Assembly: GCA_934183185.1 (NCBI GenBank)
Contig: CAKPSO010000003.1
Coordinates: 3,215 to 67,214, forward strand
Direction of reading: 5' to 3'
Length of the DNA stretch: 64,000 nucleotides
Origin: an uncultured Bacilli bacterium
GTDB taxonomy: Bacteria; Bacillota_I; Bacilli_A; RF39; UBA660
The notes beneath the pieces are model-generated. The model saw only the letters and a list, made by a program, of their open reading frames with translations, had not been told where the DNA came from and made no database searches. The position numbers and the translations under genes were made by a program. Below, piece after piece: positions 3,020 through 57,632 of the stretch (position 1 is its first letter; every line of letters begins with the position of its first letter).

Positions 3020-3280
3020 CTAGATAGCCTCTACAATTAGTTTTATTGCTGTTCTTTCCTCTCCATCTATAGTAATATCAGTAAATGCTGGAATACAAAC
3101 TAAATTTTTACCACTTGGTGCTACAAATCCTCTAGCTATAGCTATAGCTTTAATTGCTTGATTTAAAGCTCCAGCTCCAACAGCCTGAATTTCTACACTA
3201 CCCTTCTCACGAAATACGTTAGCTAGGGCTCCTGCTACACTATTGGGATTAGATTTAGATGAAACTTTAAGTGTTTCCAT
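3020..3280 (-). CDS. spoVS: stage V sporulation protein S
   Basis: METLKVSSKSNPNSVAGALANVFREKGSVEIQAVGAGALNQAIKAIAIARGFVAPSGKNLVCIPAFTDITIDGEERTAIKLIVEAI is near-identical to the SpoVS family. The internal Met at 3280 is the conserved start; the ORF track over-extends to 3364. Confidence 0.9.
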   Translation of the reverse strand: METLKVSSKSNPNSVAGALANVFREKGSVEIQAVGAGALNQAIKAIAIARGFVAPSGKNLVCIPAFTDITIDGEERTAIKLIVEAI

Positions 3281-3350
3281 ATTTATTTTATCATTCCTTT
3301 CTACACTTAAGTATATGTAGAAGGCAGAAAAAAAAGACATAAAATTATGT

Positions 3351-4106
3351 CTATAATTCTTCAACTTGTGGTTTAGAAACTTTTTCTACTGGTTTAACTT
3401 CAGGTGTTTCTGAAACTTCTTGACTACTAGTATCAGGTATTTCTACAGGCGCTGCTGGTATTTCAAATGTAAATGGTTGTTGTTGAGTTTCTTCTGTTTC
3501 AGTAGCAACTGGTTTACTTTCTTCAATTTTAGGTATTTCAACTACTGGTTCTTGTACAGGTTCAACAATTTTAATATCATTAATTGCTCCACCATATGGT
3601 ACATGATGTTCTTCCATCTTAGGCAATTTTTGAGTAGCCTCTAATGGATCATTTCCACCATAAATTGTAGGTTTCTTTTCTTCTACTACAGGTATTTCTA
3701 CTTCACTAGGTTTTTCTTCACCATATACAGAAACCATTGTTTGATCTAATTTAGCTTCTTCTACTGGTTTAACTTCAACTTCAGGTAATGTATTAGTTTC
3801 AACTACTGTATTGTCTTCAACTACTGCAGGCTGAACAGTAGGAATATCTTGAACAGTTTCACTAACTTCAGGTTGAGTTTTATCTTCTACTACAGGTTGA
3901 GTACTTGTAACTTGAGTAACAGCTATAGTCTCACTACCATTAGCTTCCTTAGTATTATCTATATCTGACTCTACCTTTTCTTTCTTAGTTCCTTTACTTC
4001 CTGTAATAAATAAGATAAGCGCTACAATTAATAATACAACACCAAGTGATATTAAAATACCAGGAATTGTTGTAAACCAATCTAAACTTAACGCTAAAAT
4101 AAACAT
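3351..4106 (-). CDS. membrane-anchored low-complexity Pro/Glu/Val-rich protein
   Basis: N-terminal TM helix (ILISLGVVLLIVALILFITG), then repetitive PVxE/PEV-rich sequence. Lies immediately upstream of spoVS on the same strand. Confidence 0.5.
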   Translation of the reverse strand: MFILALSLDWFTTIPGILISLGVVLLIVALILFITGSKGTKKEKVESDIDNTKEANGSETIAVTQVTSTQPVVEDKTQPEVSETVQDIPTVQPAVVEDNTVVETNTLPEVEVKPVEEAKLDQTMVSVYGEEKPSEVEIPVVEEKKPTIYGGNDPLEATQKLPKMEEHHVPYGGAINDIKIVEPVQEPVVEIPKIEESKPVATETEETQQQPFTFEIPAAPVEIPDTSSQEVSETPEVKPVEKVSKPQVEEL

Positions 4107-5712: not shown

Positions 5713-7050
5713 TCATAAATCTTTACTTTTTAAATAGTATTTTTCACTCTCTTTATTAAAATAATCCTTACCTAAATCAATAGTCATAAGTCTATCATAT
5801 ATATCATTCTGATTAACTTGAGCTTCATTTATTAAAGTTAAATATAAACTTCTAAATTTATCATCAACTGAAATATCACAACAGCTAGTATAACTATTCA
5901 TTAATTTATAAATACCATCTACTACTGCTTTATTTCCATATATCTTAGTTAATGAATCATATATTAAAGTATCATCACAAGTACTATAAGCTTCTAACAT
6001 TTTATCAGAACCAATAATTTCACACATCAATCTAACACATATTACTTCTCTTCCATAAGTATCATAAACAGGCTGTTCTTTAAAATACTCTCTCTGTAGT
6101 AAAGCAGTCATTCCCTCATCTAACACTCTATTATTTAAACACCCAGTCTTATGAATCATCTCATGTTCAATAACTACATCTCTAAAACCATCTTTAATAT
6201 GATTAGGATAACAGTAAATAATATTATCATCATAAAAACACGAACCACTAATAGTACCTAAATTATACTTATCATAAATACGTAAAGTTAACATATCATG
6301 AAACAACTTATTACAGTCCAAATATGGATTATCTAAAGCATACTGCTTTAAAGACATTAAAGTATTATAATCTTCCTTTGATAAATATGGATTATTATGT
6401 AAATTATTAAAAATAGTATTAATAGCTTTAACATGGTACTCATCATCAGAAAGTCCATCATAATTATTAGTATCATCAATATCAGTATTTAAAATCTCAT
6501 AATAGTATGGCATAGTAAATATTTGTGGTAAATGCATTGAGTCTAATAAAGTAAGACATGATAATAATAAAATAGCTTTAACTTTTAAACTATGAAATTT
6601 TACTTTTTTAGGAATAAACTTTTTTTCAAAATGAATCTGTCCCATAAATAAAATAGGAAGCCCAATAGATACAAAAGACATAGGTACAAATATCTTACTA
6701 GATATAGCGTCATAAGTAATCAAATGATTAGTTAAAATTTCTATTCCCGAAAAAAGTAAAGATATTTCTGTAATACCATTCTCTATTCCATGTAGTTTAA
6801 CATAATTATTGCAAGCATTAGTTAATTTATTTAATTTACTAAAGTTCTCCTTAATACATGGATAATAAACTATCATGCCATATTCTTCTAACTCACTCTG
6901 ACTTTTACTTTCCTGTTCTTGAAATTGTTTTAAATAACGATCAGCTTTATTACTATATTTAATTCTTTTTACTCTAAAATCTTCAAAAAATACATACATA
7001 TATCTTATTTCTTCTTCTCTTACTAAGAAATAAATCTGTTTTATATCCAT
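5713..7050 (-). CDS. hypothetical membrane protein with HExxH zinc-metalloprotease-like motif
   Basis: Central TM helices (aa ~130-200). Downstream VIEHEMIHKTG followed by DEGMTALL (possible third ligand). Start probably MDIKQIY at 7050, preceded by GGGGGG as RBS. Confidence 0.45.
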   Translation of the reverse strand: MDIKQIYFLVREEEIRYMYVFFEDFRVKRIKYSNKADRYLKQFQEQESKSQSELEEYGMIVYYPCIKENFSKLNKLTNACNNYVKLHGIENGITEISLLFSGIEILTNHLITYDAISSKIFVPMSFVSIGLPILFMGQIHFEKKFIPKKVKFHSLKVKAILLLSCLTLLDSMHLPQIFTMPYYYEILNTDIDDTNNYDGLSDDEYHVKAINTIFNNLHNNPYLSKEDYNTLMSLKQYALDNPYLDCNKLFHDMLTLRIYDKYNLGTISGSCFYDDNIIYCYPNHIKDGFRDVVIEHEMIHKTGCLNNRVLDEGMTALLQREYFKEQPVYDTYGREVICVRLMCEIIGSDKMLEAYSTCDDTLIYDSLTKIYGNKAVVDGIYKLMNSYTSCCDISVDDKFRSLYLTLINEAQVNQNDIYDRLMTIDLGKDYFNKESEKYYLKSKDL

Positions 7051-15265: not shown

Positions 15266-16012
15266 ATGTTTGAAGATAATAAATGTGAACATAAAAAATA
15301 CTGTGAATTACCAAATGGGTGTTACATAATTGGGCCAACTGGACCTACTGGGCCAAGTGGTGGACCAGTTGGACCTAGAGGAGCTACAGGGCCTACTGGA
15401 CCTCAAGGACCTATAGGAAATACAGGGCCAGCTGGACCTCAAGGAACCCCAGGGGAAGCTGGTTTGATAGGACCTACAGGACCAACCGGACCCACTGGAC
15501 CTACTGGGCCTACTGGGCCAGTAGGATTACAAGGACCAGCAGGATTACAAGGAATCAAAGGTGAACAAGGTCCTACCGGACCTACTGGGCCAAGTGCAGT
15601 AGCAGCTTTTGGACGTAAATATGATAATTCAACAAATACCATAAGTCTAGAAGCTAATATAAATAAAGAAATCCCATTAGGAAGTACTGGACCATCATCA
15701 GGTATTACGACTGGTACCCAAAATGCATTAACTATAGTTGATAATGGTACATATAAAATAGATTATTTCTTTTCTGGATCTACTAGTGCTAATGCCAATG
15801 TAACAGTAGAAATAAGACAAAACACAACACCTATTGGTAGTAGTACTATAATTAAGGATACTACTGCTAATCAAGAAGTAGATTTTATAGGTAGTTCAAT
15901 AAATTCATTTGCAGCTGGAGATAAAATTGGTTTAAGTATAGAATCAACTAGTCAAATCACCGTATCACCATCTTCTGGTACTAGTGCATACCTAAATATA
16001 TATAAACTATAA
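15266..16012 (+). CDS. BclA-like collagen-triplet exosporium protein with C-terminal TNF/C1q-like domain
   Basis: N-terminal [25 protein letters not shown], then ~30 GxT/GPx triplets, then a C-terminal domain with [10 protein letters not shown]...AYLNIYKL resembling the BclA C-terminal domain. Good GGAGG RBS. Confidence 0.8.
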
Positions 16013-16036: not shown

Positions 16037-16690
16037 ATGCTTGATAATAAAAAATGCTCTAAAAATAAATATAATCTACCCAGCTCTTGTTATATAATTG
16101 GGCCAACTGGGCCAACTGGTCCAACTGGACCACAAGGTATTAAAGGCAATACGGGACCAACCGGGCCTCAAGGAGCCGATGGTATTAATGCTGTACGCTC
16201 TGCATATCTAGTAACATTCAACCCAAGTACAGAAGAAAATGGAATATCTATTGAACCAAATGGTAGATTACCAATAGACCGAAAAGAAATTGATATTACT
16301 AATTTGATAACACTAAATGATGATAAAACCATCAAATTTAATGAAGCAGGTCACTATAAACTAACATTTATAGTCTCTACATACATTCAAACAAATGATA
16401 TAGCATTTGACCCACATAAAGATTTTATATCTATTGGTTTCAGACAAATAAATACTGATAACATATATATAGGGGCCAGCAAATGGATATTTAATGAAAA
16501 GCCAACACAAATAATAGCACAGGGAATAATTGTTGTAAATGACATAAATAATATATATGAATTAAGTAATCTTGGTAAATTCAAAATATTCTTAAATACT
16601 CCAGATATAATAGATATCAATACACATTCCTATTTTTCTAATGCTTTACTAACCATAAACATAGAATATTTAGATAACCAAAAAGATTAA
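16037..16690 (+). CDS. collagen-triplet (BclA-family) protein with divergent C-terminal domain
   Basis: [29 protein letters not shown]... short collagen region, then a 170 aa globular domain. Confidence 0.75.
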   Translation: MLDNKKCSKNKYNLPSSCYIIGPTGPTGPTGPQGIKGNTGPTGPQGADGINAVRSAYLVTFNPSTEENGISIEPNGRLPIDRKEIDITNLITLNDDKTIKFNEAGHYKLTFIVSTYIQTNDIAFDPHKDFISIGFRQINTDNIYIGASKWIFNEKPTQIIAQGIIVVNDINNIYELSNLGKFKIFLNTPDIIDINTHSYFSNALLTINIEYLDNQKD

Positions 16691-23335: not shown

Positions 23336-23515
23336 AGCAACACCTCAATCCCAAAATAAATATATCATGTGTAATGCTATATGTAAACATATTTTATTAA
23401 AACATTATTATTGATATTACATAACACATATTACTTAAAATAATTTAAAAAAAAGATAAAAAAAATGTCCAATTATAAAATAATTGCATATGATGATAAC
23501 AAAGGAGTTTTTGCT

Positions 23516-24082
23516 ATGAATAAAAATAATAATCCTAACTGCTATCCATATTTTCCTGGACCTACTGGGCCAACCGGACCTACAGGATTGCAGGGACCAG
23601 CTGGTATTCAAGGGCCACAAGGTGAACAAGGGCCAACTGGTCCAACAGGTCCTGCAGCAACAAATCCGGCCACATTTGCCTATAAATATAACGACGAGGG
23701 TACAGAATTAAACCTAACAGCCAATAAAACAGATAAAATTGCCTTAAGTATTGCTGGAGAAGCTTCTGGAATATCAGTAACACTAGAAAATAGTATGGTA
23801 ATAAATAGTTATGGAACTTATAAAATAGAATACTTTTTTTCTGGATCAGCTGATAAAAACGTTGGTATAGTAACAGAAGTAGAAGTCAATGACATATCAG
23901 TAAATGGATCAGAAATAAGTAAAGATGTAACTGCTAATAATGAAGCAGATTTTCACGGAATCACAGTAGCAGTTCTTAACCCTTTAGATACAATCTATTT
24001 AGGTATAAGAGCTAATCAAGATACAGTAGTAACACCAGCACCAGATGTAAACGCTTACTTAATTCTAACTAAACTATCTTAA
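23516..24082 (+). CDS. BclA-like collagen-triplet exosporium protein (third paralog)
   Basis: [30 protein letters not shown]... then a C-terminal domain with [10 protein letters not shown]...AYLILTKLS paralogous to 15266-16012. AAAGGAG RBS 8 nt before the ATG at 23516. Confidence 0.8.
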
Positions 24083-25464: not shown

Positions 25465-25770
25465 ATGAAAAAGTTTATAATGCGTGATGAAGAATTCATA
25501 TGCGAAAATTGTCATAAAAATGTCAATAGACTAAATTATACAGCTAGGGATCATTGCCCTTATTGTTTATACTCTAAACATGTAGATATCACACCTGGTG
25601 ACAGATTAAATGAATGTAAAGGATTACTAGAACCAGTGTCAATAGAAAAGTTTAAAGATACCTATAAAATTGTATATAAATGTAAAAAATGTAAGCAAAT
25701 TCATAAAAATATCATGGCTAGAGATGATGACTATAATAAAATTATAGAATTATCTAAGGCTGAACTATAA
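25465..25770 (+). CDS. RNHCP-domain zinc-ribbon protein
   Basis: CENCHKNV...ARDHCPYCLYSKH...CKKCKQIH: RNHCP motif and paired CxxC. Confidence 0.6.
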   Translation: MKKFIMRDEEFICENCHKNVNRLNYTARDHCPYCLYSKHVDITPGDRLNECKGLLEPVSIEKFKDTYKIVYKCKKCKQIHKNIMARDDDYNKIIELSKAEL

Positions 25771-26394
25771 ATCAGCTACTGTTTTAGCCTGTAGCAATTT
25801 TTCTAAAGTTGTATACTTTGGTGCTCTCAAAGAAGCAGCAGACAAATCTCCTAACTCAATTTTTTTAGGAAGTAATATTGGTTCACCATCAAGTTCAATC
25901 AAATATTTATTAGGATATCTCCTAGAAGGGATATACTTTTTTACTTTAGCATAATATGTAATTCCTGAAACAGGTCTACCTACATAAATAGCCACATACT
26001 TAATTTTATCGATATTTTCCTTACGAATTCTAACGTAATACCAACGATGTTCTCCTAAAAAAGCTTCATTAAAACCATCTTTGTAACCTGGATAAACAAC
26101 TGTATCAAAGTTATCAACTACACCTGATTTATATTTATCAGGTTCATAATCTCCCTTATAACCATCAATAGTTATTCCATAATTTTCTTTCAAAAAAGAA
26201 TCAATCTCTGTAAGATAAGCATCAATTGCGTCTTCAAGTAAGGCATTTCTAGGATAATTCCTCTTATTAATATCATTAAAAATTTCTGAAACTTTATCCA
26301 TTTTATCAATAAGCCCCGAATCAATATTAAACGTTAATTGTTTTCTTTCTCTTGTATTTAATCTTTCTTCAATAATATCTCTTGCGTAATTCAT
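25765..26394 (-). CDS. ribbon-helix-helix (CopG/Arc-like) N-terminal domain fused to ~130 aa Tyr/Lys-rich C-terminal domain of unknown function
   Basis: KQLTFNIDSGLIDKMDKVSEIF...NALLEDAIDAYL gives the RHH beta-alpha-alpha pattern. The C-terminal RWYYVRIRKENIDKIKYVAIYVGRPVSGITYYAKVKKY has no family I can name. Confidence 0.45.
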   Translation of the reverse strand: MNYARDIIEERLNTRERKQLTFNIDSGLIDKMDKVSEIFNDINKRNYPRNALLEDAIDAYLTEIDSFLKENYGITIDGYKGDYEPDKYKSGVVDNFDTVVYPGYKDGFNEAFLGEHRWYYVRIRKENIDKIKYVAIYVGRPVSGITYYAKVKKYIPSRRYPNKYLIELDGEPILLPKKIELGDLSAASLRAPKYTTLEKLLQAKTVADL

Positions 26395-26573
26395 AAATTA
26401 ACCGCCTCCGTTACCTCTTTAACCTTTTTATCCTTAGTTTTGGCTTTAAATACTTTTCTAAAAAATTGCCCCTTTATTTTAGCAGGAAAATTAATAGTAA
26501 TAGGATTAGTTGAACTCTTACCACCAATAATAGTAGTCGTTTTATGGTACTCTTCATGCTCGATTTTGATCAT
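26391..26573 (-). CDS. small basic protein, translationally coupled (ATGA overlap) to the RHH-fusion gene
   Basis: 60 aa, GGAGGG RBS, C-terminal KAKTKDKKVKE. Its stop overlaps the downstream start. Confidence 0.4.
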   Translation of the reverse strand: MIKIEHEEYHKTTTIIGGKSSTNPITINFPAKIKGQFFRKVFKAKTKDKKVKEVTEAVNL

Positions 26574-26696: not shown

Positions 26697-27047
26697 CTAA
26701 TTTTTTGGTTTAAAAAATAATGTAAAAATAAAAGTAAATACTATAGCTGCCGTAATACCAGAAGCAGTTAAATCAAACATTCCCATCAAAAGTCCCATAA
26801 TTCCCATATCACTTGCTTTAGCCAAAGCCCCATGGATTAATGAATGACCAAAACTAGTAATTGGTACCAACGCTCCTGCTCCTACGTAATTAATAATTTG
26901 ATCATATATACTAAAAGTATCCAAGAAAGATCCTACTACAACAAATATACTAGTAATATGACCCGCAGATAATTTAGTATTATCTAAAATAATTTGGCCT
27001 ATTAAACAAATAAGTCCACAAAACAAGAATGAATTTATATATATCAT
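26697..27047 (-). CDS. spoVAE: stage V sporulation protein AE (SpoVAEB-type)
   Basis: 116 aa membrane protein, paralogous to the SpoVAC fold, third gene of the spoVA operon. Confidence 0.85.
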   Translation of the reverse strand: MIYINSFLFCGLICLIGQIILDNTKLSAGHITSIFVVVGSFLDTFSIYDQIINYVGAGALVPITSFGHSLIHGALAKASDMGIMGLLMGMFDLTASGITAAIVFTFIFTLFFKPKN

Positions 27048-28042
27048 TATTTAATAACCTCCAAACTAACAGCATGAGCAATACTCAAAATATTTTCATG
27101 TTGAAATACCATTGTAGGAGAAAATAAAGCACCTGTTGCTACTAATAATACTTTTTTAATTTTCTTTTTTCTAAGCATTTCCATTATTAAACTATAATTA
27201 ACTAAAGCACTACATACTGGTCCAGAGCCACCCGCTAATACTTCTTTTTGGGTTTCTAAATCATAAAGCATAACGCCACAATCATTATAATTACTACTAA
27301 TATCTATTCCATATTCAGTCTTCATAAAATCTATTAGGATTTCTTTTCCATATAATCCTAAGTCCCCTGTTAATATAAGATCATAGTAACTAGGTTCTCT
27401 ATTCATATCCTTCAAATGTCTATAAATAGTATCAGCTGCAGCTGGTGCCATAACACTACCCATATTAAGAGGATCAGTTTGATTATAATCAAGTATTCTT
27501 CCAATAGTTGAACTTTCTACTTTAATTCCCGTGTTTTCTAAAGTAAGTAACATACTAGCTCCACCAGTAGCTGTAAATGTAGCTGTTTTAGGTTTAGGAG
27601 CTCCATACTCTGTTGGATTACGAAATTGCTTTTCACTAGACATATTATGGGAAGAAGTTGAAGTAATAACATTTTTAACTTTACCACTATCAATCAAACT
27701 ACTTCCTAAAATAATTCCCTCAATACTAGTAGCACAGGCACTATAAATACCCAAAAAAGGAAAATTAAATTTTTCAGATGAATAACATGAAGAAGTAATT
27801 TGATTCATTAAATCACCCGATATAATAACATCTATATCTTCTTTATTTTTTTTAGCTTTCTTTAAAACTAAACTAATACTTTCTTCTAATACTTTAGCTT
27901 CTGCCGTCTCCCATGATTTTTCACCATTATATAAATTATCAAATGTCTTATCAAAATACTTTTTCAAAGGTCCCTTTGCCTCATATGGTCCAGCTACAGT
28001 ACTAGTTTCATCCACAAATACATTTTTATATTCAAAAGTCAT
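27047..28042 (-). CDS. spoVAD: stage V sporulation protein AD
   Basis: 331 aa thiolase/KAS-like fold (GIYSACATSIEGII, GGSGPVCSA) typical of SpoVAD. Confidence 0.9.
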   Translation of the reverse strand: MTFEYKNVFVDETSTVAGPYEAKGPLKKYFDKTFDNLYNGEKSWETAEAKVLEESISLVLKKAKKNKEDIDVIISGDLMNQITSSCYSSEKFNFPFLGIYSACATSIEGIILGSSLIDSGKVKNVITSTSSHNMSSEKQFRNPTEYGAPKPKTATFTATGGASMLLTLENTGIKVESSTIGRILDYNQTDPLNMGSVMAPAAADTIYRHLKDMNREPSYYDLILTGDLGLYGKEILIDFMKTEYGIDISSNYNDCGVMLYDLETQKEVLAGGSGPVCSALVNYSLIMEMLRKKKIKKVLLVATGALFSPTMVFQHENILSIAHAVSLEVIK

Positions 28043-28044
28043 AA

Positions 28045-28494
28045 TTACCCTCCCATAATAATTAATCTAAGAAGTCCAAAAAACCAAGCTGATACTACTC
28101 CATATAAAATAACACTACCTGCAAGTTTAAATATATTGCTACCAAGTCCAAATATAGGTCCCTCTTTTCTATATTCAATTCCTGCACTAGTCATTGAATG
28201 AGCAAATCCTGTAATAGGAATAATTAATCCACACTTACAGAATGTTACCCATTTATCAAAAAAGCCTAATGCTGTAAATAAACTAGCTAAAAATATTAAA
28301 GTAACTAGCATAAATGTAGATGCATCTTTTGTAGATATATCAAACCATCCTACATAACATTCAGTCAATACTTGTCCTATAACCCCTACTAATCCACCTG
28401 TTACAAATGCTATAAAAGCATTTTGAACCCTTGTTTCAGTAGGTTTATGTTTATTAACTATTTCTTCATACTTCTTTTTTTCCATTTTCATCAC
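28045..28494 (-). CDS. spoVAC: stage V sporulation protein AC
   Basis: 149 aa, 4 TM. AFIAFVTGGLVGVIGQVL and ITGFAHSMTSAGIEY match SpoVAC. Confidence 0.9.
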   Translation of the reverse strand: MMKMEKKKYEEIVNKHKPTETRVQNAFIAFVTGGLVGVIGQVLTECYVGWFDISTKDASTFMLVTLIFLASLFTALGFFDKWVTFCKCGLIIPITGFAHSMTSAGIEYRKEGPIFGLGSNIFKLAGSVILYGVVSAWFFGLLRLIIMGG

Positions 28495-28501
28495 CTACTA
28501 C

Positions 28502-28531
28502 TATTATGTAAATATTTAAATATTTTTATAC
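28502..28531 (-). promoter_or_regulatory. forespore sigma (SigG/SigF)-type promoter for spoVAC-AD-AE
   Basis: Minus strand reads GTATA-N18-CATAATA, ~8 nt upstream of the spoVAC RBS (consensus GnATA-N18-CATnnTA). Confidence 0.5.
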
Positions 28532-28539
28532 AAAAATAA

Positions 28540-28558
28540 AAGAGATATTCAATCTCTT
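28540..28558 (-). terminator. hairpin terminator after sigF
   Basis: AAGAGAT-loop-ATCTCTT followed by a T-rich run on minus. Confidence 0.45.
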
Positions 28559-29225
28559 AAGCAACTTCTTTCCTTAACTTTTGGAGAATCTTACTTTCTT
28601 CTCTTGAAACTTTAACTTGAGAAAGTCCCATCATTTTACTAGTTTCACTCTGAGTCATATCCTCAAAATAACGATACTTAATAAGTCTTTGTTCTTCTTC
28701 TGATAATCTAGTTAAAGCTTCTTTTAAATCAAGTACATCTTCATTGAATCCTTTTTCTTGATATGGAATAGTATCATATAAGTTAACATCTTTATCACCA
28801 TCATCACTATTAACTATATAATCAAAACTAAGTACAAATTGTTTAGACATTAATGCTTCTTGTATTAGTGAAATATCTATTTCAGAAAACAAAGATATTT
28901 CTTCTAATGTAGGTTCTCTTAGTAATTTATGCCTCAATGTATTAGAAACATCTTCTACTATTTTAGCTATTTTAAGTAAATTACGATTTGTTTTAATATT
29001 TCTATCTTCTCTAATATATTTAAGTATTTCTCCTTTAATCCACAAATATGCATATGAAGAAAATTTGGTATTAGAGTTCTCTTTATAGTTATCATAAGCT
29101 TTTTTTAATCCAATCATACCTACTTGTTTTAAATCTTCTATATCGTAATAATAATGAAATTTATTAGCATAAGCTAAAATTAGGTTTTCATATTTAAGTA
29201 ATTCTTCTTCAAAAGTATTAGTCAT
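28557..29225 (-). CDS. sigF: sporulation sigma factor SigF (SigF/SigG family)
   Basis: Sigma-70 regions 2-4 (YAYLWIKGEILKYIR; C-terminal SQVKVSREESKILQKLRK). Lies between spoIIAA and spoVA as in Clostridium. Confidence 0.8.
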   Translation of the reverse strand: MTNTFEEELLKYENLILAYANKFHYYYDIEDLKQVGMIGLKKAYDNYKENSNTKFSSYAYLWIKGEILKYIREDRNIKTNRNLLKIAKIVEDVSNTLRHKLLREPTLEEISLFSEIDISLIQEALMSKQFVLSFDYIVNSDDGDKDVNLYDTIPYQEKGFNEDVLDLKEALTRLSEEEQRLIKYRYFEDMTQSETSKMMGLSQVKVSREESKILQKLRKEVA

Positions 29226-29238
29226 ATTATCATCCTTT

Positions 29239-29589
29239 TTAAATATTTATTAATCGAAAGGCACCAAGTTCATTACTACTACTTTCTATATTCTGAAAGG
29301 CTAAATTAATTTCTTTAGTAACTTTTCTATGTATAATGGAATCATATCCACATACTACTAATTTTCCATCATGCATAATAACATCAAAATAGTGATCCAT
29401 AATACTTTTAATACCGACTTCATCAATGGATGTTAGATTTTCCAGATTAATAACAAAGTAACGTATTCCTTGTTCATATATCATTCTATCTAATTCTTCA
29501 TTTAATTGTTTAGATGTTCTTTCACTAAGAATTCCTTCTAAACGCACAAACAACATACCACGTACAAACTCCATATTAATTTTGAACAT
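29239..29589 (-). CDS. spoIIAA: SpoIIAA-like STAS-domain anti-sigma-factor antagonist with Ser-to-Glu substitution at the phospho-site
   Basis: Aligns to B. subtilis SpoIIAA over VINLENLTSIDEVGIKSIM vs VLNLEDLSFMDSSGLGVIL, so phosphoserine S58 is replaced by E and S59 by V. Confidence 0.75.
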   Translation of the reverse strand: MFKINMEFVRGMLFVRLEGILSERTSKQLNEELDRMIYEQGIRYFVINLENLTSIDEVGIKSIMDHYFDVIMHDGKLVVCGYDSIIHRKVTKEINLAFQNIESSSNELGAFRLINI

Positions 29590-29648
29590 ATCTCACCTCT
29601 TGTTTTATGTATATTTAATATAGCTCTTTTTTAATAATTTTTATACAC

Positions 29649-29655
29649 TTTCGAC
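29649..29655 (-). promoter_or_regulatory. putative Spo0A box (TGTCGAA) upstream of spoIIAA
   Basis: Minus strand reads TGTCGAA about 60 nt upstream of the spoIIAA start. Confidence 0.35.
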
Positions 29656-29720
29656 AAAAGATGTCAAAACTTCCCATAGAAAAATAACTGAACATCAACT
29701 ATTCAGTTATTTATATTTAA

Positions 29721-31451
29721 TTATTCTACAACAAATGGATCAGAACTTGTGCCTATTCCAGAAGCTTTAACATTTGGTTTTATGTTTATTACAGGTCTAA
29801 CAGGACTAGGCATTATTAACAATTTGCTACCTGAAACATTATCTTGATTTCTATAAACGATCCAACCTCTACCATCAGTTTTATCAAAACCGCCTGGATT
29901 AATCATAAATGTATCAATATCACTATATAAATACCATGCAGACATTTTTTTATTTATGTAGCCACCAGCATATACTACTTCATCATATGAAATTAATCCA
30001 ATTTTTTTATATAAAATACCATGATTATTATCATCATTAGTACAAGTAAAATTTACAATATATTTATCATATACAGGTGCAATTATATTATTATATCTAT
30101 AAGTAGAGTTTGCTTTAACCTTCGCTTGTTCACAAAAAATGCCATCAGTTATATAAGAATCATAATTAACTAATTTTAAAGTATACCAATTTTCTAATTC
30201 TTTCAATAAGTTACTGTTAGAAAAATAAAATGTTTCATAATCCGATGTAGTATCCCAAGAATAGGCACTATTATCATTAATGCCTTCTTTCATAATAATT
30301 CTTATCGTTCCATCTTCATTTATTCTTACTATTCTCCACGTAAGCCCTGCAAATGATACATAATTATTTTCTACATTTCCTCTAAAATAATATGTTGGAT
30401 CTCCTGTATTAGTAGCAGTTGATTTATATAAGCCACTTGCATCTCTAGAATCCTCATAAGTAGTAGTTAATGTTGGTTCTGCATCTATTACTTCATATTT
30501 TTTTCCAAATATTGATACTTTCTCTGCCTGCTTTACTTTAATATTAATTTTGTATTCTTTAGTTACTGTTTGATCTGTACTAGTAATAGTTACTTTATAG
30601 ATATTATTACCACCTACTAGACTTACTTCACTATTATTTGATATTACTTGATTATCTTTTTCTATCTTTACATTAGCTAATGAATACTTAGGTACTATAT
30701 TTAACTTAGCTGTTGTATCACTATCTAACTCTACTTCATAGTTCCAGTCTTTATTTTCAACTTTAGTTAAACTGGTATCTCCTATAGTTATATTTTTTAT
30801 ATCAGTATTACTTCTTAATGCTTGTTCTTCTTCTGATATTACTTTAGCATTTGAATATACATTTACTGTTGCTGTAAAGGTTTGTCCTCCTATAACGCTT
30901 AAATCTGCATTTTCATCTAACCACATTTTTAATCTAAATGTCTTTAAATAATTATTAGTATTTCCTGCTACTTCTCCCTTGTAGATACTCTTTTCTACAT
31001 TATTTCCAACATCAGTAGTAGTTTGTACTAATTTACTATATAGGGTTGGTGTTAGTAATTCTGTTTGATCTATCCCATCTTGAAGATATACTTTTATATT
31101 ATCTTCACCCATAGTAGAAGTAGCTTTCTTTCTTAGTGTTACTTCATATGGTATTACTTCATTTCCTGTATTTGTTCCCTCTACTTTGAAATCAAATACA
31201 TTATTATCTCCTACTAATTCTTTACCCTTAGTATCTGATATTGGTTCTGCCTCAGTTATACTTATTCCATTACCATTAGTATTATTTTCTGTATACAAGA
31301 ACTTTAATGTACCAGTGGTAACTACATTATCTGTAGTTCCTTCTTTAGTATAAGTAAATACTGCATATGTTACTCCTATAGTTATTAAAAATAAACTTAA
31401 TATTCCTAATACTGAAAATAATATCTGTTTACTTTTATTCTTATCTTTCAT
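29721..31451 (-). CDS. secreted protein with SipW-cognate (TasA/camelysin-type) signal peptide, TasA-like N-domain and a C-terminal ~270 aa domain of unknown function
   Basis: LITIGVTYAVFTYTKEGTTDNVVTTGTLKF parallels TasA GGTWAAFNDIKSKDATFASGTLDL. The C-terminal domain (GLYKSTATNTGDPTYYFRGNVENNYVSFAGLTWRIVRINEDGTIRIIM...GIGTSSDPFVVE) is paralogous to both halves of 45984-47789. Confidence 0.6.
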   Translation of the reverse strand: MKDKNKSKQILFSVLGILSLFLITIGVTYAVFTYTKEGTTDNVVTTGTLKFLYTENNTNGNGISITEAEPISDTKGKELVGDNNVFDFKVEGTNTGNEVIPYEVTLRKKATSTMGEDNIKVYLQDGIDQTELLTPTLYSKLVQTTTDVGNNVEKSIYKGEVAGNTNNYLKTFRLKMWLDENADLSVIGGQTFTATVNVYSNAKVISEEEQALRSNTDIKNITIGDTSLTKVENKDWNYEVELDSDTTAKLNIVPKYSLANVKIEKDNQVISNNSEVSLVGGNNIYKVTITSTDQTVTKEYKINIKVKQAEKVSIFGKKYEVIDAEPTLTTTYEDSRDASGLYKSTATNTGDPTYYFRGNVENNYVSFAGLTWRIVRINEDGTIRIIMKEGINDNSAYSWDTTSDYETFYFSNSNLLKELENWYTLKLVNYDSYITDGIFCEQAKVKANSTYRYNNIIAPVYDKYIVNFTCTNDDNNHGILYKKIGLISYDEVVYAGGYINKKMSAWYLYSDIDTFMINPGGFDKTDGRGWIVYRNQDNVSGSKLLIMPSPVRPVINIKPNVKASGIGTSSDPFVVE

Positions 31452-34610: not shown

Positions 34611-35762
34611 TTAAAAGCTAAGTCTGCCAACCACTATATCTCTTAAATTATCTCCTAATATTTGTAGAAAGTTTTTCTTACTTACATTTTTATTAACTAT
34701 AAGATCATATTTCCCTATCAAATTATTACCATCAAATACCTTTAGTTTGCCAACTACATCATTCTTTTTTAATGGTAAAGAAATTTTATCAAGTTCAACT
34801 TTTTGAGTATATTCTTTAGCTGCCTCATTCTTCTTTTTCAAAATAGAAATTTCTTCTTTAGTAACAATTTCAACTTTCCCACTATTACTACGTTCAACTT
34901 TTACCTTATCGACAACTTCATCTTTCTTTCTTAAAACAGATACCTCGTAAAGATTAAAGCCATAATCAAGTAAGGCTGTTGTTTCCTGATTTCTTACTTT
35001 ACTAACATCTTCCCCTAACACGATAGCTAATATTCGCATACCATTACGTTTACTAGTTACTGCCATACAGTACTTAGCAGCATCAGTAAACCCAGTTTTT
35101 AATCCATCAGCGCCCTCATAAAACCTAACCAATTTATTAGTATTAACTAACCAAAATTTATTAGGAGTATCAACTCTTAAATAATCTTCATATAAAGAAG
35201 AAAATTCAAATATCTGCTCATGCTTCATAAGTTCTCTAGCTATAATACTTAAATCATAAGCAGAAGAATAATGATTATCTTGATCTAATCCAGTAGGATT
35301 AACGAAATTAGTATTTTTAAGGCCTAATTCACGTACCTTATCCATCATCATCTTCACAAAATTATCTTCACTACCAGCAATTCTTTCAGCTAACGCAACT
35401 GTAGCATCATTAGCAGAAGCCATACTAATACCTTTCATCAGATCTCTAACCGTCATTTCTTCACCAGGTTGTAAGTATATTTGAGTACCACCATATCCAG
35501 AAGCATTACTACTTACTTTGATAACTTCATCCCACTTCAAAGTGCCTTTCTCAATACTTTCTAGAATTAATAATTGAGACATCATCTTAGTTAAAGAAGC
35601 AACTGCTACTCTATCGTTCATGTTTTTTTCAAATAATACAGTTCCAGTATTAACCTCCACTAAAATAGCATTTCTAGCATTTGTAGCTAATTTTTCTTCA
35701 GCTCTAACCCAAACAGGAACACTTAATAAAAAAATACTAAAAATAACAAATATTTTTTTCAC
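34611..35762 (-). CDS. serine-type D-alanyl-D-alanine carboxypeptidase (PBP5/DacF-like)
   Basis: Signal peptide, SLTKMM (SxxK), SANDA (SxN), KTGFT (KTG). Confidence 0.85.
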   Translation of the reverse strand: MKKIFVIFSIFLLSVPVWVRAEEKLATNARNAILVEVNTGTVLFEKNMNDRVAVASLTKMMSQLLILESIEKGTLKWDEVIKVSSNASGYGGTQIYLQPGEEMTVRDLMKGISMASANDATVALAERIAGSEDNFVKMMMDKVRELGLKNTNFVNPTGLDQDNHYSSAYDLSIIARELMKHEQIFEFSSLYEDYLRVDTPNKFWLVNTNKLVRFYEGADGLKTGFTDAAKYCMAVTSKRNGMRILAIVLGEDVSKVRNQETTALLDYGFNLYEVSVLRKKDEVVDKVKVERSNSGKVEIVTKEEISILKKKNEAAKEYTQKVELDKISLPLKKNDVVGKLKVFDGNNLIGKYDLIVNKNVSKKNFLQILGDNLRDIVVGRLSF

Positions 35763-45983: not shown

Positions 45984-47789
45984 TTATCCAATTACATATG
46001 GATCAGAACTAGTTCCAATTCCTTTAGATATTCCCGTATCAGCTTTTATATTTAAAACTGCTCGAAGGCGATTATTATCTCCAACACTAAAGTAATTGAT
46101 ATTACCAGTTGTATAGACATACCATACATATGAAATTGAGCCAGAGAATCCAGCGGGACTCATTGTCCAAAAATATGTATTTTTATTATATAAATAATAA
46201 TTATTATTGGATTTACCATAATATCCACCAGCATAAACCATTTCGTCATAGCTTAGTAATCCTACACTTGCATTTACCAGTCCTTTTCCATTCCCATCAG
46301 CTGTGCATTTAAAATCAGGAGTATAACTTGAATATAATGTCATTGTTGTACTTCCAGATGTCCAACTTGAATCATATTTAGCTTTTGCCTGCTCACAATA
46401 ATAATTACCACTTGCAACTATACTAGCTAAATCAGTTTTATTTCCTATATTTGTTTGATACCAATTTTCAAGTGATGATTTAACCTGACTATTTGAATAA
46501 TACATAGAACTATATTCGTAATAATTTAAATTATTAAATCTATAATTTGTATTACTATTAATTCCATCTTGCATTACTATTCTAGTAGTTCCGTCTTCAT
46601 TAACCCTAACTATTCTCCATATTTGTCCAGCAAAACTTACATAATTATTATCTACATTTCCTCTAAAGTAATAAGTAGGTTTTCCTGTATTTGTATCAAT
46701 TGATTTATATAATCCACTCTCGTCACTAGTATTATTACTAGAATTAGTTAGTGTAGGTTCTTTTTCAATTAATTTATTATCATTCATTATAGCATCAGTT
46801 AAATCTTTTAATTTAATTACGTATGGATCAGAGCTAGTTCCAATTCCTTTAGATATTTCAGTATCAGCTTTAAGATTAATAATAGGTCTAAGTGTAAGCA
46901 TACTATTAGTAACATATGCATAAATCCTTCCAGAATTATCAATGTGCCAAACTTGTGAATCTTGTGCATCTGATGAGTCAAATCCAGCCGGGCTCATCAT
47001 CCAAAAGAAATTCTTATTATATAAATAATAACTGTCATTAATTTTATAGTAGTAACCACCAGCATAAATTATTTCATCATAAGTTATTAAGCCAATCTTT
47101 GAATTTACTAAGCCTTTCCCATTACCATCATTACTACATTTAAAGTCCGGATTATAGTTATCATGCACAATCATAGAGGCATTACCAGAAGTCCAACTTG
47201 TTACTAGTTTTGATTTAGCAGCCTCACAATAATAACTACCTGATGCCACATGTCGATCTAATAAATTATTCTTCCCTATATTATTGCTGTACCAATTTTC
47301 CAAAGTTGCCTTAGCCTCACTATTTGAATAGTACATATTTAAATAATTATTATGAGTTGTATTAAACCTAAAAGTAGCATTACCATTTATACCATCCTGC
47401 ATAATTAATCTTATTGTTCCATCTTCATTAATTCTTACTATTCTCCATACTTGTCCAGCAAAGCTTACATAATTATTTTCTACATTTCCTCTAAAATAGT
47501 AGGTTGGTTCCCCAGTATTTGTATCAGTTGATTTATATAAGCCACTCTCATCACTGGTATTATTGGAAGAAGTAGTTAATGTAGGTTCCTTTTCTATCAA
47601 TTTGTTTTTCCTTAATACTATACTTCTTAAATTAGAAGTGCTAGCTACACTAGTAATCAAGCTATTTTCCACATTTCCCTTTTCTTCAAATGAAAAAAGA
47701 GCATATGAAAAAGAAAAAAGTAATATACTTATAGTTATACCAATACAACAACCAAAACAAATTAATATCTTTTTTATGTCATATTTCAT
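45984..47789 (-). CDS. secreted protein with SipW-cognate-type signal and two tandem copies of the ~270 aa unknown domain
   Basis: N-terminus ...LLFSFSYALFSFEEKGNVEN. Two repeats, each containing GLYKS(T/I)DTNTG(E/K)PTYYFRGNV(E/D)NNYVSFAGQ(V/I)WRIVR(I/V)NEDGT(I/T)R...KGIGTSSDPYVI. Confidence 0.6.
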   Translation of the reverse strand: MKYDIKKILICFGCCIGITISILLFSFSYALFSFEEKGNVENSLITSVASTSNLRSIVLRKNKLIEKEPTLTTSSNNTSDESGLYKSTDTNTGEPTYYFRGNVENNYVSFAGQVWRIVRINEDGTIRLIMQDGINGNATFRFNTTHNNYLNMYYSNSEAKATLENWYSNNIGKNNLLDRHVASGSYYCEAAKSKLVTSWTSGNASMIVHDNYNPDFKCSNDGNGKGLVNSKIGLITYDEIIYAGGYYYKINDSYYLYNKNFFWMMSPAGFDSSDAQDSQVWHIDNSGRIYAYVTNSMLTLRPIINLKADTEISKGIGTSSDPYVIKLKDLTDAIMNDNKLIEKEPTLTNSSNNTSDESGLYKSIDTNTGKPTYYFRGNVDNNYVSFAGQIWRIVRVNEDGTTRIVMQDGINSNTNYRFNNLNYYEYSSMYYSNSQVKSSLENWYQTNIGNKTDLASIVASGNYYCEQAKAKYDSSWTSGSTTMTLYSSYTPDFKCTADGNGKGLVNASVGLLSYDEMVYAGGYYGKSNNNYYLYNKNTYFWTMSPAGFSGSISYVWYVYTTGNINYFSVGDNNRLRAVLNIKADTGISKGIGTSSDPYVIG

Positions 47790-56649: not shown

Positions 56650-57005
56650 AAATAATACTTTATAAGCCATGTTCTGTACCTATTACTAGGCGACAAACAT
56701 TTATCTATCAGTTACCTGATCCCCAATTTGGTTATAATTCCCTCCTTGAAGCTCCCCTACCATAATTTGGGTTTCTCACTCGCGGGGTTTACCATCGTTT
56801 CACTTACTTTTTTCAAAGCAATATCGTCACTGTGGCACTTTACAGTTACTAATTCCATATCAAACGACTTAGGAATCTTCACCGCCGTTAGCAAATGCTA
56901 CCTAGGGTTATTTTTTCCCCTAGCACGAACACTAAAAGCATTCCAGCTTTTGTGAGCATGGACTTTCCTCTACATTATAATAAATGTAGCGTTTGTCAAA
57001 GTATT
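56650..57005 (-). ncRNA. rnpB: RNase P RNA (type B)
   Basis: Minus strand contains AGAGGAAAGUCCAUGCUC (P4 5' strand), AAGUGCCACAGUGACGA, CGAUGGUAAACCCCGCGAGUGAGAAACCCAAAUUAUGGUAGGGGAGC and ACAGAACAUGG. Each has a close match in B. subtilis rnpB. P1 pairs AAUAAUACUUU with AAAGUAUUAUU. Sits next to gpsB as in Bacillus. Confidence 0.85.
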
Positions 57006-57321
57006 ATTCTTCTTCTTTATCTTCTTTTCCGTAAACTATTTTTTCTAAATTAGAAACTCGACGAATAATATCTAAATTAGTAATTTCTTTATCTTCAGTT
57101 TTAGCAATATCAATACTCATCTTAACATTTCTAAGTTCCTGCTTTAAATTCATAATTTCTTTAAGCAATCCTTCTTTTTCACCTTCAAGTGTCTTAATCT
57201 TATCATAGAATTGTTCATAATCTCCAATAATCTTATCTAAGAACTGATCAACTTCTTTTAATCGATAACCTCTAGTATCAATTTTAAATTCTTTTTCTAA
57301 GATATCTTGTGGTGTTAACAT
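57004..57321 (-). CDS. gpsB: cell-cycle protein GpsB (DivIVA-domain)
   Basis: LTPQDILEKEFKIDTRGYRLKEVDQFLDKIIGDYE DivIVA N-domain, ~105 aa. Confidence 0.85.
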   Translation of the reverse strand: MLTPQDILEKEFKIDTRGYRLKEVDQFLDKIIGDYEQFYDKIKTLEGEKEGLLKEIMNLKQELRNVKMSIDIAKTEDKEITNLDIIRRVSNLEKIVYGKEDKEEE

Positions 57322-57632
57322 TATCATACACTTTCACCAATCCCTTACACTGCTATTATGACAAAATTTGACTTAAATGTCAATGAAAATCAATCATGAT
57401 GAAGATACACATGTAGCTTAACATATACTATTCTTTTTTCCATCTTATTAAATATTTCCATCAACTGTAAATAATTCATATTATTCACCTCACTACTATC
57501 ATACATTAAAAATATTACTATGTAACAAATTCGACAAAACTAGAATTATTTTTTACATCAAACTAATTAAAAAGAAAAGAAAATAATAGAAAAATAATAC
57601 ATAATATAGTATAATGATATCTAGGTGATTAG

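What the first reader, a model, noticed from the sequence alone, without database searches (positions are those of the whole stretch)
28557..29589. SpoIIAA-like antagonist with Glu at the phospho-serine site, and no spoIIAB between spoIIAA and sigF
The STAS protein aligns residue-for-residue with B. subtilis SpoIIAA around the phosphorylation loop (VINLENLTSIDEVGIKSIM vs VLNLEDLSFMDSSGLGVIL). The phosphorylatable Ser58 is replaced by Glu and Ser59 by Val. Only 13 nt separate its stop from the sigF start, so the SpoIIAB anti-sigma kinase gene that canonically sits between them is absent. If the Glu replaces the phospho-serine functionally, the protein would resemble the phosphorylated (inactive) form or a kinase-independent partner. 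This suggests SigF control here has been rewired. Direct fusion of this module to spoVAC-AD-AE is the Clostridium-type layout.
Basis: partly seen in the sequence, partly recalled or inferred. Interest (0 to 1): 0.72.

Follow-up and report, generated by a model that had tools for sequence, protein, structure and literature searches.

The report
Kinase-less SpoIIAA–sigma F sporulation module
An uncultured gut bacterium, like a wide radiation of its relatives, keeps the sporulation sigma factor F and its small STAS partner as a tight gene pair but has no SpoIIAB kinase gene at the locus and no phosphorylatable serine, so the textbook switch for turning on sigma F cannot work here as described.

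Summary
On the minus strand, a 116-aa STAS protein (29589..29239) aligns without gaps to SpoIIAA. It has Glu57 where SpoIIAA has the phospho-acceptor Ser58. A 222-aa sigma-F-like gene starts 13 nt after its stop, with no gene between them. It is not a sequencing error: the same 1033 nt occur in four independent assemblies.

The feature is clade-wide. All 23 related genome loci and all 6 more distant family members sampled have STAS followed directly by sigma, with no GHKL kinase. A canonical SpoIIAA used as a control is followed by SpoIIAB. Both genes are under strong purifying selection (dN/dS about 0.05) and sit behind a conserved Spo0A box.

The phosphomimetic reading is not supported. Across the wider family, the Ser58 column is hypervariable (E, K, L, I, N, S, D, M and others), while the flanking Asp and Gly are kept. 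Some members without a kinase gene still carry Ser.

My best reading is a degenerate spoIIA operon whose STAS protein now acts without phosphorylation, most likely by binding sigma F directly. That last step is inferred. I could not test genome-wide absence of SpoIIAB. A 2024 survey reports spoIIAB and spoIIE as missing or rare in order RF39. This is a new variant of a known system.

The parts
29663..29668 (-). TTGACA, a -35-like hexamer. With GTATAAA (29640-29646) 16-17 nt downstream it forms a sigma-A-like promoter candidate that has the Spo0A box in its spacer.
   Evidence: Read from the sequence. The relative position recurs as TTGATA, TTGTAA or TTTGAA in related loci. Which hexamers are actually used is not resolved.
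29650..29658 (-). Spo0A box TTTGTCGAA, 61-69 nt upstream of the STAS start codon
   Evidence: An exact TGTCGAA is present at this position in 21 of 23 related loci. The window has only 2 copies against 0.22 expected.
29609..29623 (-). Conserved near-palindromic element CTATATTAAATATAC between the 0A box and the ribosome-binding site. It could be an alternative -10 (TATATT) or an operator.
   Evidence: Conserved as CTATATT(A/T)AATATA in most loci, although the proteins are only 50-78% identical. Function unknown.
29239..29589 (-). SpoIIAA-like STAS protein, 116 aa, not phosphorylatable
   Evidence: There are 32 invariant columns among 25 homologs that go down to 53% identity. dN/dS is 0-0.06 in close pairs.
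29419..29421 (-). Codon GAA for Glu57, at the position of the SpoIIAA phospho-acceptor Ser58
29226..29238 (-). 13-nt intercistronic spacer with the ribosome-binding site for sigma. There is no room for a gene.
   Evidence: The gap ranges from -13 to +62 nt across all 29 related or family loci examined.
28557..29225 (-). Sigma-F-like sigma factor, 222 aa, with regions 2, 3 and 4. It lacks about 25-30 N-terminal residues of B. subtilis SigF.
   Evidence: SigB/F/G subfamily at 158.6 bits. The best equivalog is SigF TIGR02885 at 148 bits, below its cutoff of 321. The best PDB hit is sigma F 1L0O_C at E=7.7e-28. dN/dS is 0.01-0.10. Alignment.
28531..28558 (-). Terminator-like hairpin AAGAGAT-tgaa-TATCTCTT followed by TTATTTTT, overlapping the sigma stop codon
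   Evidence: Read. Different sequences form an equivalent hairpin plus T-run at the same place in other loci (output). The consensus scan does not call it because the stem has fewer than 3 G-C pairs.
28502..28531 (-). Forespore-type (sigma F/G consensus) promoter GTATA-N18-CATAATA in front of spoVAC
   Evidence: Present at the same position in 12 of 18 loci. Within the window alone it is not above chance: 2 found against 1.27 expected.
26697..28494 (-). spoVAC (28494..28045), spoVAD (28042..27047) and spoVAE (27047..26697)
   Evidence: These proteins are 83-99% identical across loci, whereas STAS and sigma are only 48-78% identical.

Best explanation
This is the ancestral spoIIA operon of an uncultured, AT-rich (27.7% GC) gut Bacilli lineage, reduced to two genes.

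Shown:
- The SpoIIAA ortholog is followed directly by the sigma F ortholog. No spoIIAB lies between them, in the rest of the 64-kb window, or in any related locus.
- The pair sits behind a conserved Spo0A box and ends at a hairpin.
- spoVA follows under its own forespore-type promoter.
- Both genes are under strong purifying selection.
- In the wider family the phospho-acceptor column has lost all constraint, while the surrounding Asp-x-x-Gly loop and the R/H-Tyr of helix 2 are kept.

Inferred: the kinase, and by the literature the SpoIIE phosphatase, were lost. After that loss the STAS protein no longer cycles between phosphorylated and unphosphorylated forms. It was kept because it still binds a partner through the canonical STAS face. 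The most likely partner is the sigma factor made with it from the same bicistronic message. On this reading the protein acts stoichiometrically, as a holder or anti-sigma, or as a chaperone. Sigma F activity would then be set by Spo0A-driven expression and by the relative amount or stability of the two proteins, not by a phosphorylation switch.
For: Gene order and absence of a kinase gene:
- 23 of 23 genome loci have STAS followed directly by sigma.
- 6 of 6 diverse family members do too, including ones with Lys, Leu, Met or Ser at the acceptor position.
- The canonical control is followed by SpoIIAB.
- tblastn with SpoIIAB and RsbW finds nothing else in the window or in 349 kb of loci.
- Pfam scans of about 50 window ORFs show no HATPase_c_2 and no PP2C domain.

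Orthology to spoIIA:
- Best family and PDB matches.
- Synteny with a dacF-like PBP5, spoVA and scpAB.
- A conserved Spo0A box.

Both genes are functional: dN/dS is 0-0.10, and the sequence is identical in four assemblies.

The acceptor column is unconstrained while D57 and G60 are kept. R67, a residue in both the SpoIIAB and SpoIIE interfaces (PMC11418112), is R in the family consensus and H in the window protein.

STAS and sigma diverge together and about three times faster than SpoVAD. Mantel r is 0.89, and the partial r controlling for SpoVAD is 0.84 (p=5e-4).

Against: - No direct evidence that the STAS protein binds sigma. No STAS-sigma fusion was found: the longer family members are mis-called start codons.
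- The distance correlation can also come from simple linkage of two adjacent genes.
- Genome-wide absence of a SpoIIAB-like or other anti-sigma could not be tested. Only 64 kb of a 326-kb contig was readable.
- Assignment of this lineage to RF39 rests on my recollection of GTDB and on the matching gene pattern, not on a test.
- STAS and sigma score far below the curated family cutoffs. An equally divergent, unlinked SpoIIAB could have escaped KO-based surveys.
- I know of no precedent for a STAS-only protein binding a sigma factor directly.
- Sporulation has never been observed in this lineage. One predictor gives RF39 a 0% sporulation probability (PMC12536801).
Confidence: 0.4

Rival explanations
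1. A divergent or unlinked anti-sigma still exists elsewhere in the genome. It could be a kinase-dead SpoIIAB-like protein or a non-homologous replacement. The STAS protein would act as its non-phosphorylatable antagonist, so that sigma F release depends only on how much STAS is made. M. tuberculosis RsfA is a comparable case: it antagonises UsfX without phosphorylation.
For: - The canonical STAS interaction face is conserved: the D-x-x-G loop and the R/H-Y of helix 2.
- STAS and sigma are so divergent that homology-based surveys could also miss a divergent partner.
- Unrestrained sigma F is lethal in B. subtilis (PMC11418112), so some restraint is expected.
Against: - No such gene lies next to the pair in 29 loci with varied contexts.
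- No third gene is conserved at the locus.
- In every other sporeformer lineage spoIIAB sits inside the operon.
- A KO survey reports it absent from RF39.
Confidence: 0.22
2. The STAS protein has acquired a job unrelated to holding sigma F. Possibilities include nucleotide binding or regulating another enzyme, as the STAS protein MlaB does for the MlaF ATPase. Sigma F would be controlled only by transcription. The adjacency of the two genes would be inherited, not functional.
For: - STAS-only proteins with partners that are neither sigma nor kinase exist, for example MlaB (PMC7367683, listed).
- The review PMC8256260 lists non-canonical STAS proteins with unknown targets.
Against: - The gene pair stays translationally coupled (gap -13 to +62 nt) across a radiation in which everything else around it changes.
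- The two proteins diverge in step.
- These small genomes would be expected to break an adjacency that had no function.
Confidence: 0.2
3. One reading: Glu57 mimics phospho-serine, so the protein is a permanently 'off' SpoIIAA.
For: - Glu or Asp occupies this column in 46 of 51 close clusters.
- In B. subtilis, SpoIIAA S58D behaves like the phosphorylated, inactive form (my own knowledge of the genetics, not checked here).
Against: - Sister subfamilies with the same gene pair carry Lys, Leu, Ile, Met, Asn, Cys or Gln, or even keep Ser.
- A permanently inactive protein would not stay under dN/dS of about 0.05.
- With no kinase or anti-sigma to avoid, an 'off' state has no meaning.
Confidence: 0.05
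4. The locus is a decaying remnant of sporulation in a lineage that no longer forms spores, and the genes are on their way out.
For: - A predictor scores RF39 as non-sporulating (PMC12536801).
- The lineage has lost many sporulation genes (PMC10868615).
- A more distant relative (L023) has an STAS that lacks even the D-x-x-G loop.
Against: - The ORFs are intact in all loci, and dN/dS is 0-0.10.
- SpoVAC, SpoVAD and SpoVAE are 83-99% identical across species.
- The Spo0A box and the forespore-type promoter are conserved.
- SpoVS and BclA-like exosporium-type proteins are in the same window.
Confidence: 0.05

Closest known systems
Canonical spoIIA operon (spoIIAA-spoIIAB-sigF) of Bacillus subtilis, Geobacillus and Clostridium
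   Same: - Orthologous STAS protein and sigma factor: best family, PDB and fold matches.
- Same chromosomal neighbourhood, downstream of a dacF-like PBP5 and upstream of spoVA.
- A Spo0A box lies upstream.
- The D-x-x-G loop at the N-cap of helix 2 is kept.
   Different: - No SpoIIAB gene.
- No phosphorylatable Ser or Thr at position 58.
- Both proteins fall far below the curated equivalog cutoffs.
- The sigma is about 25-30 residues shorter at the N-terminus.
- SpoIIE is reported absent or rare in the probable order (PMC10868615).
RsbV-RsbW-SigB and other partner-switching modules (BtrV/W, SypA/E, HmpV/W, RbaV/W)
   Same: A small single-domain STAS protein encoded next to a group-3 sigma factor of the SigB/F/G subfamily.
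   Different: All of those modules keep a GHKL kinase and a phosphorylatable Ser (review PMC8256260). This one has neither at the locus.
M. tuberculosis RsfA (Rv1365c), an anti-anti-sigma that is not controlled by phosphorylation (my own knowledge; the related UsfX-RsfB complex 8IH8 appears among the fold matches)
   Same: An STAS antagonist in a sigma F system that works without phosphorylation of the conserved loop.
   Different: RsfA still acts on a GHKL-type anti-sigma (UsfX). No such protein was found here.
MlaB, the STAS-only subunit of the MlaFEDB transporter (PMC7367683)
   Same: An STAS-only protein that has no kinase and works purely by binding and stabilising a partner protein.
   Different: The partner is an ABC ATPase, the context is lipid transport in Gram-negative bacteria, and there is no link to a sigma factor.

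Membership tests
STAS domain / SpoIIAA fold | Pfam STAS match above the gathering score, and a beta-beta-alpha-beta-alpha-beta-alpha fold | tested here: met
   PF01740 at 45 bits against a cutoff of 22.6. The AF2 model has the expected secondary-structure order at pLDDT 71. The top Foldseek hits are SpoIIAA chains at TM 0.65-0.70.
SpoIIAA (anti-sigma F antagonist, TIGR02886 equivalog) | Score above the curated equivalog cutoff | tested here: not met
   48 bits against a cutoff of 114.75. It is still the best-scoring NCBIfam model.
SpoIIAA (anti-sigma F antagonist) | Phosphorylatable Ser at the N-cap of helix 2 (Ser58 in B. subtilis) | tested here: not met
   Glu57 in the window protein. The column is E in 42 and D in 4 of 51 close clusters, and hypervariable in the wider family.
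SpoIIAA (anti-sigma F antagonist) | Encoded immediately upstream of spoIIAB, its kinase and anti-sigma partner | tested here: not met
   A 13-nt gap to sigma in the window. There is no GHKL gene in the window or in 29 related loci. The control locus L034 has one.
SpoIIAA (anti-sigma F antagonist) | Same operon as sigF, next to spoVA, under Spo0A control | tested here: met
   Gene order. The Spo0A box is conserved in 21 of 23 loci. Control by Spo0A itself is inferred.
Sporulation sigma factor SigF (TIGR02885 equivalog) | Score above the curated cutoff, with regions 2, 3 and 4 of the SigB/F/G type | tested here: inconclusive
   148 bits against a cutoff of 321. The score is higher than for the SigG models (119 and 110 bits) and SigB (96 bits). 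Regions 2 and 4 are clear and region 3 is marginal. The best PDB hit is sigma F 1L0O_C. Synteny supports orthology.
Partner-switching module (STAS + GHKL kinase/anti-sigma + PP2C phosphatase) | A GHKL serine kinase/anti-sigma and a PP2C phosphatase present in the same genome | not testable with these tools
   Only the 64-kb window and stretches of 20 kb or less from related genomes could be read, and none contains either gene. PMC10868615 reports spoIIAB and spoIIE absent or rare in RF39 by KO annotation. I did not test the link between this lineage and RF39.

The most novel reading that the evidence does not exclude
In a large radiation of uncultured, genome-reduced gut Bacilli, the three-protein phosphorylation switch that makes sigma F forespore-specific (SpoIIAA, SpoIIAB, SpoIIE) has collapsed into a two-protein system. 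The former anti-anti-sigma now binds sigma F itself. If these organisms still sporulate, this would be a minimal, kinase-free way of timing or confining the first compartment-specific sigma factor.
Probability: 0.3. Interest if true: 0.8.

Novelty: new variant of a known kind. Interest (0 to 1): 0.62.

Why it matters
SpoIIAA, SpoIIAB and SpoIIE are treated as universal in endospore formers. [quoted passage not shown] This module is the textbook example of partner switching and of how cell-specific gene expression is set up.

A lineage that keeps sigma F, spoVA and other spore genes under purifying selection, but has dropped the kinase and the phospho-acceptor, is a natural experiment. It bears on three questions:
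- What is truly essential for sigma F control?
- What else can a STAS protein do?
- Do abundant human and animal gut lineages currently scored as non-sporulating actually make spores? That affects how their transmission is understood.

The STAS-sigma pair is small, clonable and directly testable in vitro or in B. subtilis.

Tried and rejected
1. Genome-wide search for spoIIAB and spoIIE. The single genome-contig scan went on finding related loci. The window covers only 64 kb of a 326-kb contig, and walking the contig would exceed the look-up cap. This remains untested.

2. Per-gene presence tables in PMC10868615. Gene names and KO numbers were not found in the held supplement. Only the list of genomes was held, and it includes just five RF39 genomes.

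3. Taxonomic placement through 'Candidatus Scybalousia intestinigallinarum'. NCBI gives only Bacilli incertae sedis, under the name Ca. Alloscybalousia. The description in PMC8035907 lies beyond the text held. Other papers refer to a Bacteroidales homonym.

4. Rosetta-stone fusions of STAS with another domain. The four longer family members are mis-called start codons or a triple-STAS protein, so they gave no information.

5. A complex prediction with a linker-joined STAS-sigma chain. I did not attempt it.

6. The consensus promoter and terminator scan was uninformative in this AT-rich DNA: 11 promoter-like sites against 10.8 expected, and no terminators because the rule needs at least 3 G-C pairs.

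7. Greater divergence of sigma region 3 as a sign of lost SpoIIAB contact. Identity to B. subtilis SigF is 24-27% in region 3, against 37% in region 2 and 44-49% in region 4. This is consistent with the idea, but region 3 is the least conserved part of sigma factors in general, so I give it little weight.

8. An rsbV-sigB origin for the pair was considered and rejected on family scores and synteny.

Full report
**What is in the window**

Five genes lie head to tail on the minus strand:
- a 116-aa STAS protein (29589..29239);
- a 222-aa sigma factor (29225..28557);
- spoVAC (28494..28045);
- spoVAD (28042..27047);
- spoVAE (27047..26697).

Pfam and NCBIfam identify the last three without ambiguity. 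The first is a STAS domain at 45 bits, and its best NCBIfam model is SpoIIAA (TIGR02886), but at 48 bits against a cutoff of 114.75. The second belongs to the SigB/F/G subfamily at 158.6 bits. Its best equivalog is SigF at 148 bits against a cutoff of 321, ahead of SigG at 119 and 110 bits and SigB at 96 bits.

The STAS stop codon and the sigma ATG are 13 nt apart, and the spacer carries a ribosome-binding site. No ORF of 50 aa or more lies between the genes or antisense to them.

**The serine position**

Three independent gapless alignments place D56-E57-V58-G59 on SpoIIAA D57-S58-S59-G60:
- the alignment to B. subtilis SpoIIAA;
- a family profile against PDB, which hits G. stearothermophilus SpoIIAA 1TH8_B at E=3.5e-18;
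- an AlphaFold2 model at pLDDT 71 and pTM 0.66, in which residue 57 caps helix 57-68.

The best structural matches of the model are the SpoIIAA chains of the SpoIIAA-SpoIIAB co-crystals, at TM 0.65-0.70. The alignment is therefore not ambiguous, and the alternative that the serine sits elsewhere in the loop is excluded.

The feature is not a sequencing error. The 1033-nt STAS-to-sigma stretch is identical in four independent metagenome assemblies. One of them is a 325,945-bp Hadza gut contig, which appears to be the source of the window.

**It is a clade character**

The protein database holds 51 clusters of close homologs, down to 53% identity. In these, the Ser58 column is Glu in 42 and Asp in 4.

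A scan of species-representative genomes returned 22 loci, plus one distant relative (L023). All come from uncultured gut MAGs labelled Bacilli, Bacillales or Tenericutes. In every one, the STAS gene is followed directly by the sigma gene, with a gap of 8-62 nt. Among these genomes the Ser58 column is Glu in 19, Cys in 2 and Gln in 1.

A full HMMER search of 1.84 billion representative proteins gave 859 hits. The best 150 reveal a much larger radiation of STAS proteins of about 110 aa. In that set the flanking Asp (134 of 150) and Gly (129 of 150) are kept. The acceptor column is S 23 (8 of them canonical MDSSG proteins), E 21, K 21, L 16, I 13, N 12, D 8, M 8, T 5, V 5 and Q 4.

I looked at the gene context of six such diverse members. 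They carry Leu, Ser, Ser, Met, Lys and Ser at the acceptor position. All have a sigma gene overlapping the STAS gene or within 13 nt of it, and none has a GHKL gene. The surrounding genes differ from case to case.

As a positive control, a canonical representative (P0142) is followed by an ORF 64% identical to B. subtilis SpoIIAB. tblastn with SpoIIAB and RsbW against the window and all 349 kb of fetched loci finds nothing else. Pfam scans of about 50 window ORFs show no HATPase_c_2 and no PP2C domain. The only GHKL protein is an ordinary histidine kinase paired with a response regulator and an ABC/FtsX transporter.

**It is the spoIIA operon, and it is alive**

The neighbourhood is Bacillus-like. 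A dacF-like PBP5 lies at 34611-35762, followed by the STAS-sigma pair, spoVA and scpA-scpB.

A perfect Spo0A box, TTTGTCGAA, lies 61-69 nt upstream of the STAS start in 21 of 23 loci. The window has only two copies against 0.22 expected.

After the sigma stop there is a hairpin followed by a T-run. Its sequence differs between loci but its shape recurs. After it comes a forespore-type promoter, GTATA-N17/18-CATxxTA, in front of spoVAC in 12 of 18 loci. Within the window alone the motif is not above chance. Its conserved position is what counts.

For closely related pairs of genomes with unsaturated dS, dN/dS is 0-0.06 for STAS and 0.01-0.10 for sigma. The window also encodes SpoVS and three BclA-like collagen proteins. 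Decay is therefore unlikely.

The rewiring of sigma F control is supported. The phosphomimetic idea is not. Subfamilies with Lys, hydrophobic residues or a retained Ser have the same kinase-less pair. The simplest history is therefore that the kinase was lost first and the acceptor position then drifted. Glu became fixed in this particular subfamily.

One further correction: sigma and spoVA are separate transcription units, not a fused module.

**Mechanism**

The shown facts are a translationally coupled STAS-sigma pair, conserved across a radiation in which everything around it changes. The STAS protein keeps the canonical interaction loop. It also keeps the R/H-Tyr at the start of helix 2. 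R67 lies in both the SpoIIAB and the SpoIIE interfaces in B. subtilis (PMC11418112). It is R in the family consensus and H in the window protein.

The two proteins diverge together and about three times faster than SpoVAD. Mean p-distances are 0.38 and 0.40 against 0.13. Mantel r is 0.89, and the partial r given SpoVAD is 0.84 (p=5e-4).

From this I infer that the STAS protein still binds something through its usual face, and that the co-translated sigma factor is the most likely partner. Whether it holds sigma F back or helps it cannot be decided here. Since unrestrained sigma F is lethal in B. subtilis, I favour a restraining role. I put about 0.4 on this whole chain.

The rivals are as follows:
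- A hidden or unlinked anti-sigma (0.22).
- An unrelated new function of the STAS protein, with sigma F controlled only by transcription (0.20).
- A permanently 'off' phosphomimetic protein (0.05).
- A decaying remnant (0.05).

**Relation to the literature**

[quoted passage not shown] Turicibacter, a cultured relative, has both SpoIIAA and SpoIIAB.

[quoted passage not shown] That matches what is seen here, and this lineage is probably RF39. I could not verify that assignment. It rests on my recollection of GTDB, on the 'Tenericutes' and 'Bacilli' MAG labels, and on the 27.7% GC content.

My searches of the held literature found no description of three points:
- the retained, Ser-less SpoIIAA ortholog;
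- its tight coupling to sigF;
- the breadth of the radiation.

I therefore rate this a new variant of a known kind, not something categorically new. I set interest at 0.62. A sporulation specialist would be surprised, and the pair is easy to test. Against that, the key negative (no anti-sigma anywhere in the genome) and the proposed binding are both unproven, and the organisms are uncultured.

Noticed in passing
window 26697-28536; L019 11184-12332; L014-L016: The spoVAC-AD-AE operon is far more conserved than its surroundings. Nucleotide identity is 91% to L019 and 83-85% to L014-L016. The adjacent STAS-sigma genes are 66-69% identical and other flanks 70-77%. In L019 and several other loci, about 4 kb is inserted between sigma and spoVA. 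This could reflect very strong constraint, or exchange of spoVA between species.
   Followed up: partly
window 57530-57538 (-), upstream of 57004-57327 (-): The only other TTTGTCGAA (Spo0A-box consensus) in the window lies about 200 nt upstream of a 107-aa DivIVA-domain protein. That protein is GpsB-like and is placed divergently from recU-ponA, as in Bacillus.
   Followed up: no
window 29609-29623 (-): A near-palindromic element, CTATATTAAATATAC, lies between the Spo0A box and the STAS ribosome-binding site. It is conserved across loci whose proteins are only 50-78% identical. It could be the real -10 (TATATT, which would put the 0A box near -40) or an operator.
   Followed up: partly
L004, L007, L008, L009, L022, about 6352-6413: In one subgroup the STAS-sigma spacer is 55-62 nt long and well conserved (…GTAGGTAGTTGTAGGTCGCAGTCCTTAAATAAAATAAGATAAGGGTGA…). 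This may be an internal promoter or an RNA element between the two genes.
   Followed up: no
L023 6001-6333 (Bacilli bacterium RGIG2101, 751-kb contig): A more distant relative keeps the STAS-sigma-spoVA order. Its STAS protein (110 aa, 29% identical) has lost even the Asp-x-x-Gly loop (…NIEKFEFNFDEW…). Two Spo0A boxes lie upstream.
   Followed up: partly
window 15266-16012 (+), 16037-16690 (+), 23465-24082 (+); 3020-3364 (-): Three collagen-repeat proteins have BclA-type C-terminal domains, suggesting exosporium-like filaments. A SpoVS gene is also present. Both are further signs of a working spore programme in a lineage usually scored as non-sporulating.
   Followed up: no
window 29721-31451 (-) and 45984-47789 (-): A 576-aa protein of unknown function, with a predicted N-terminal membrane anchor, lies just upstream of the STAS gene. 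Its C-terminal domain of about 270 aa occurs twice in tandem in a 601-aa paralog (45-48% identity). Homologs sit next to the STAS-sigma pair only in some loci (L018, L021).
   Followed up: no
window 25765-26394 (-) and 26391-26573 (-): A 209-aa and a 60-aa ORF with no Pfam match follow spoVAE and precede an RNHCP-domain gene. This arrangement recurs in the other assemblies, and a 233-aa ORF with no Pfam hit occupies the same position in L031.
   Followed up: no
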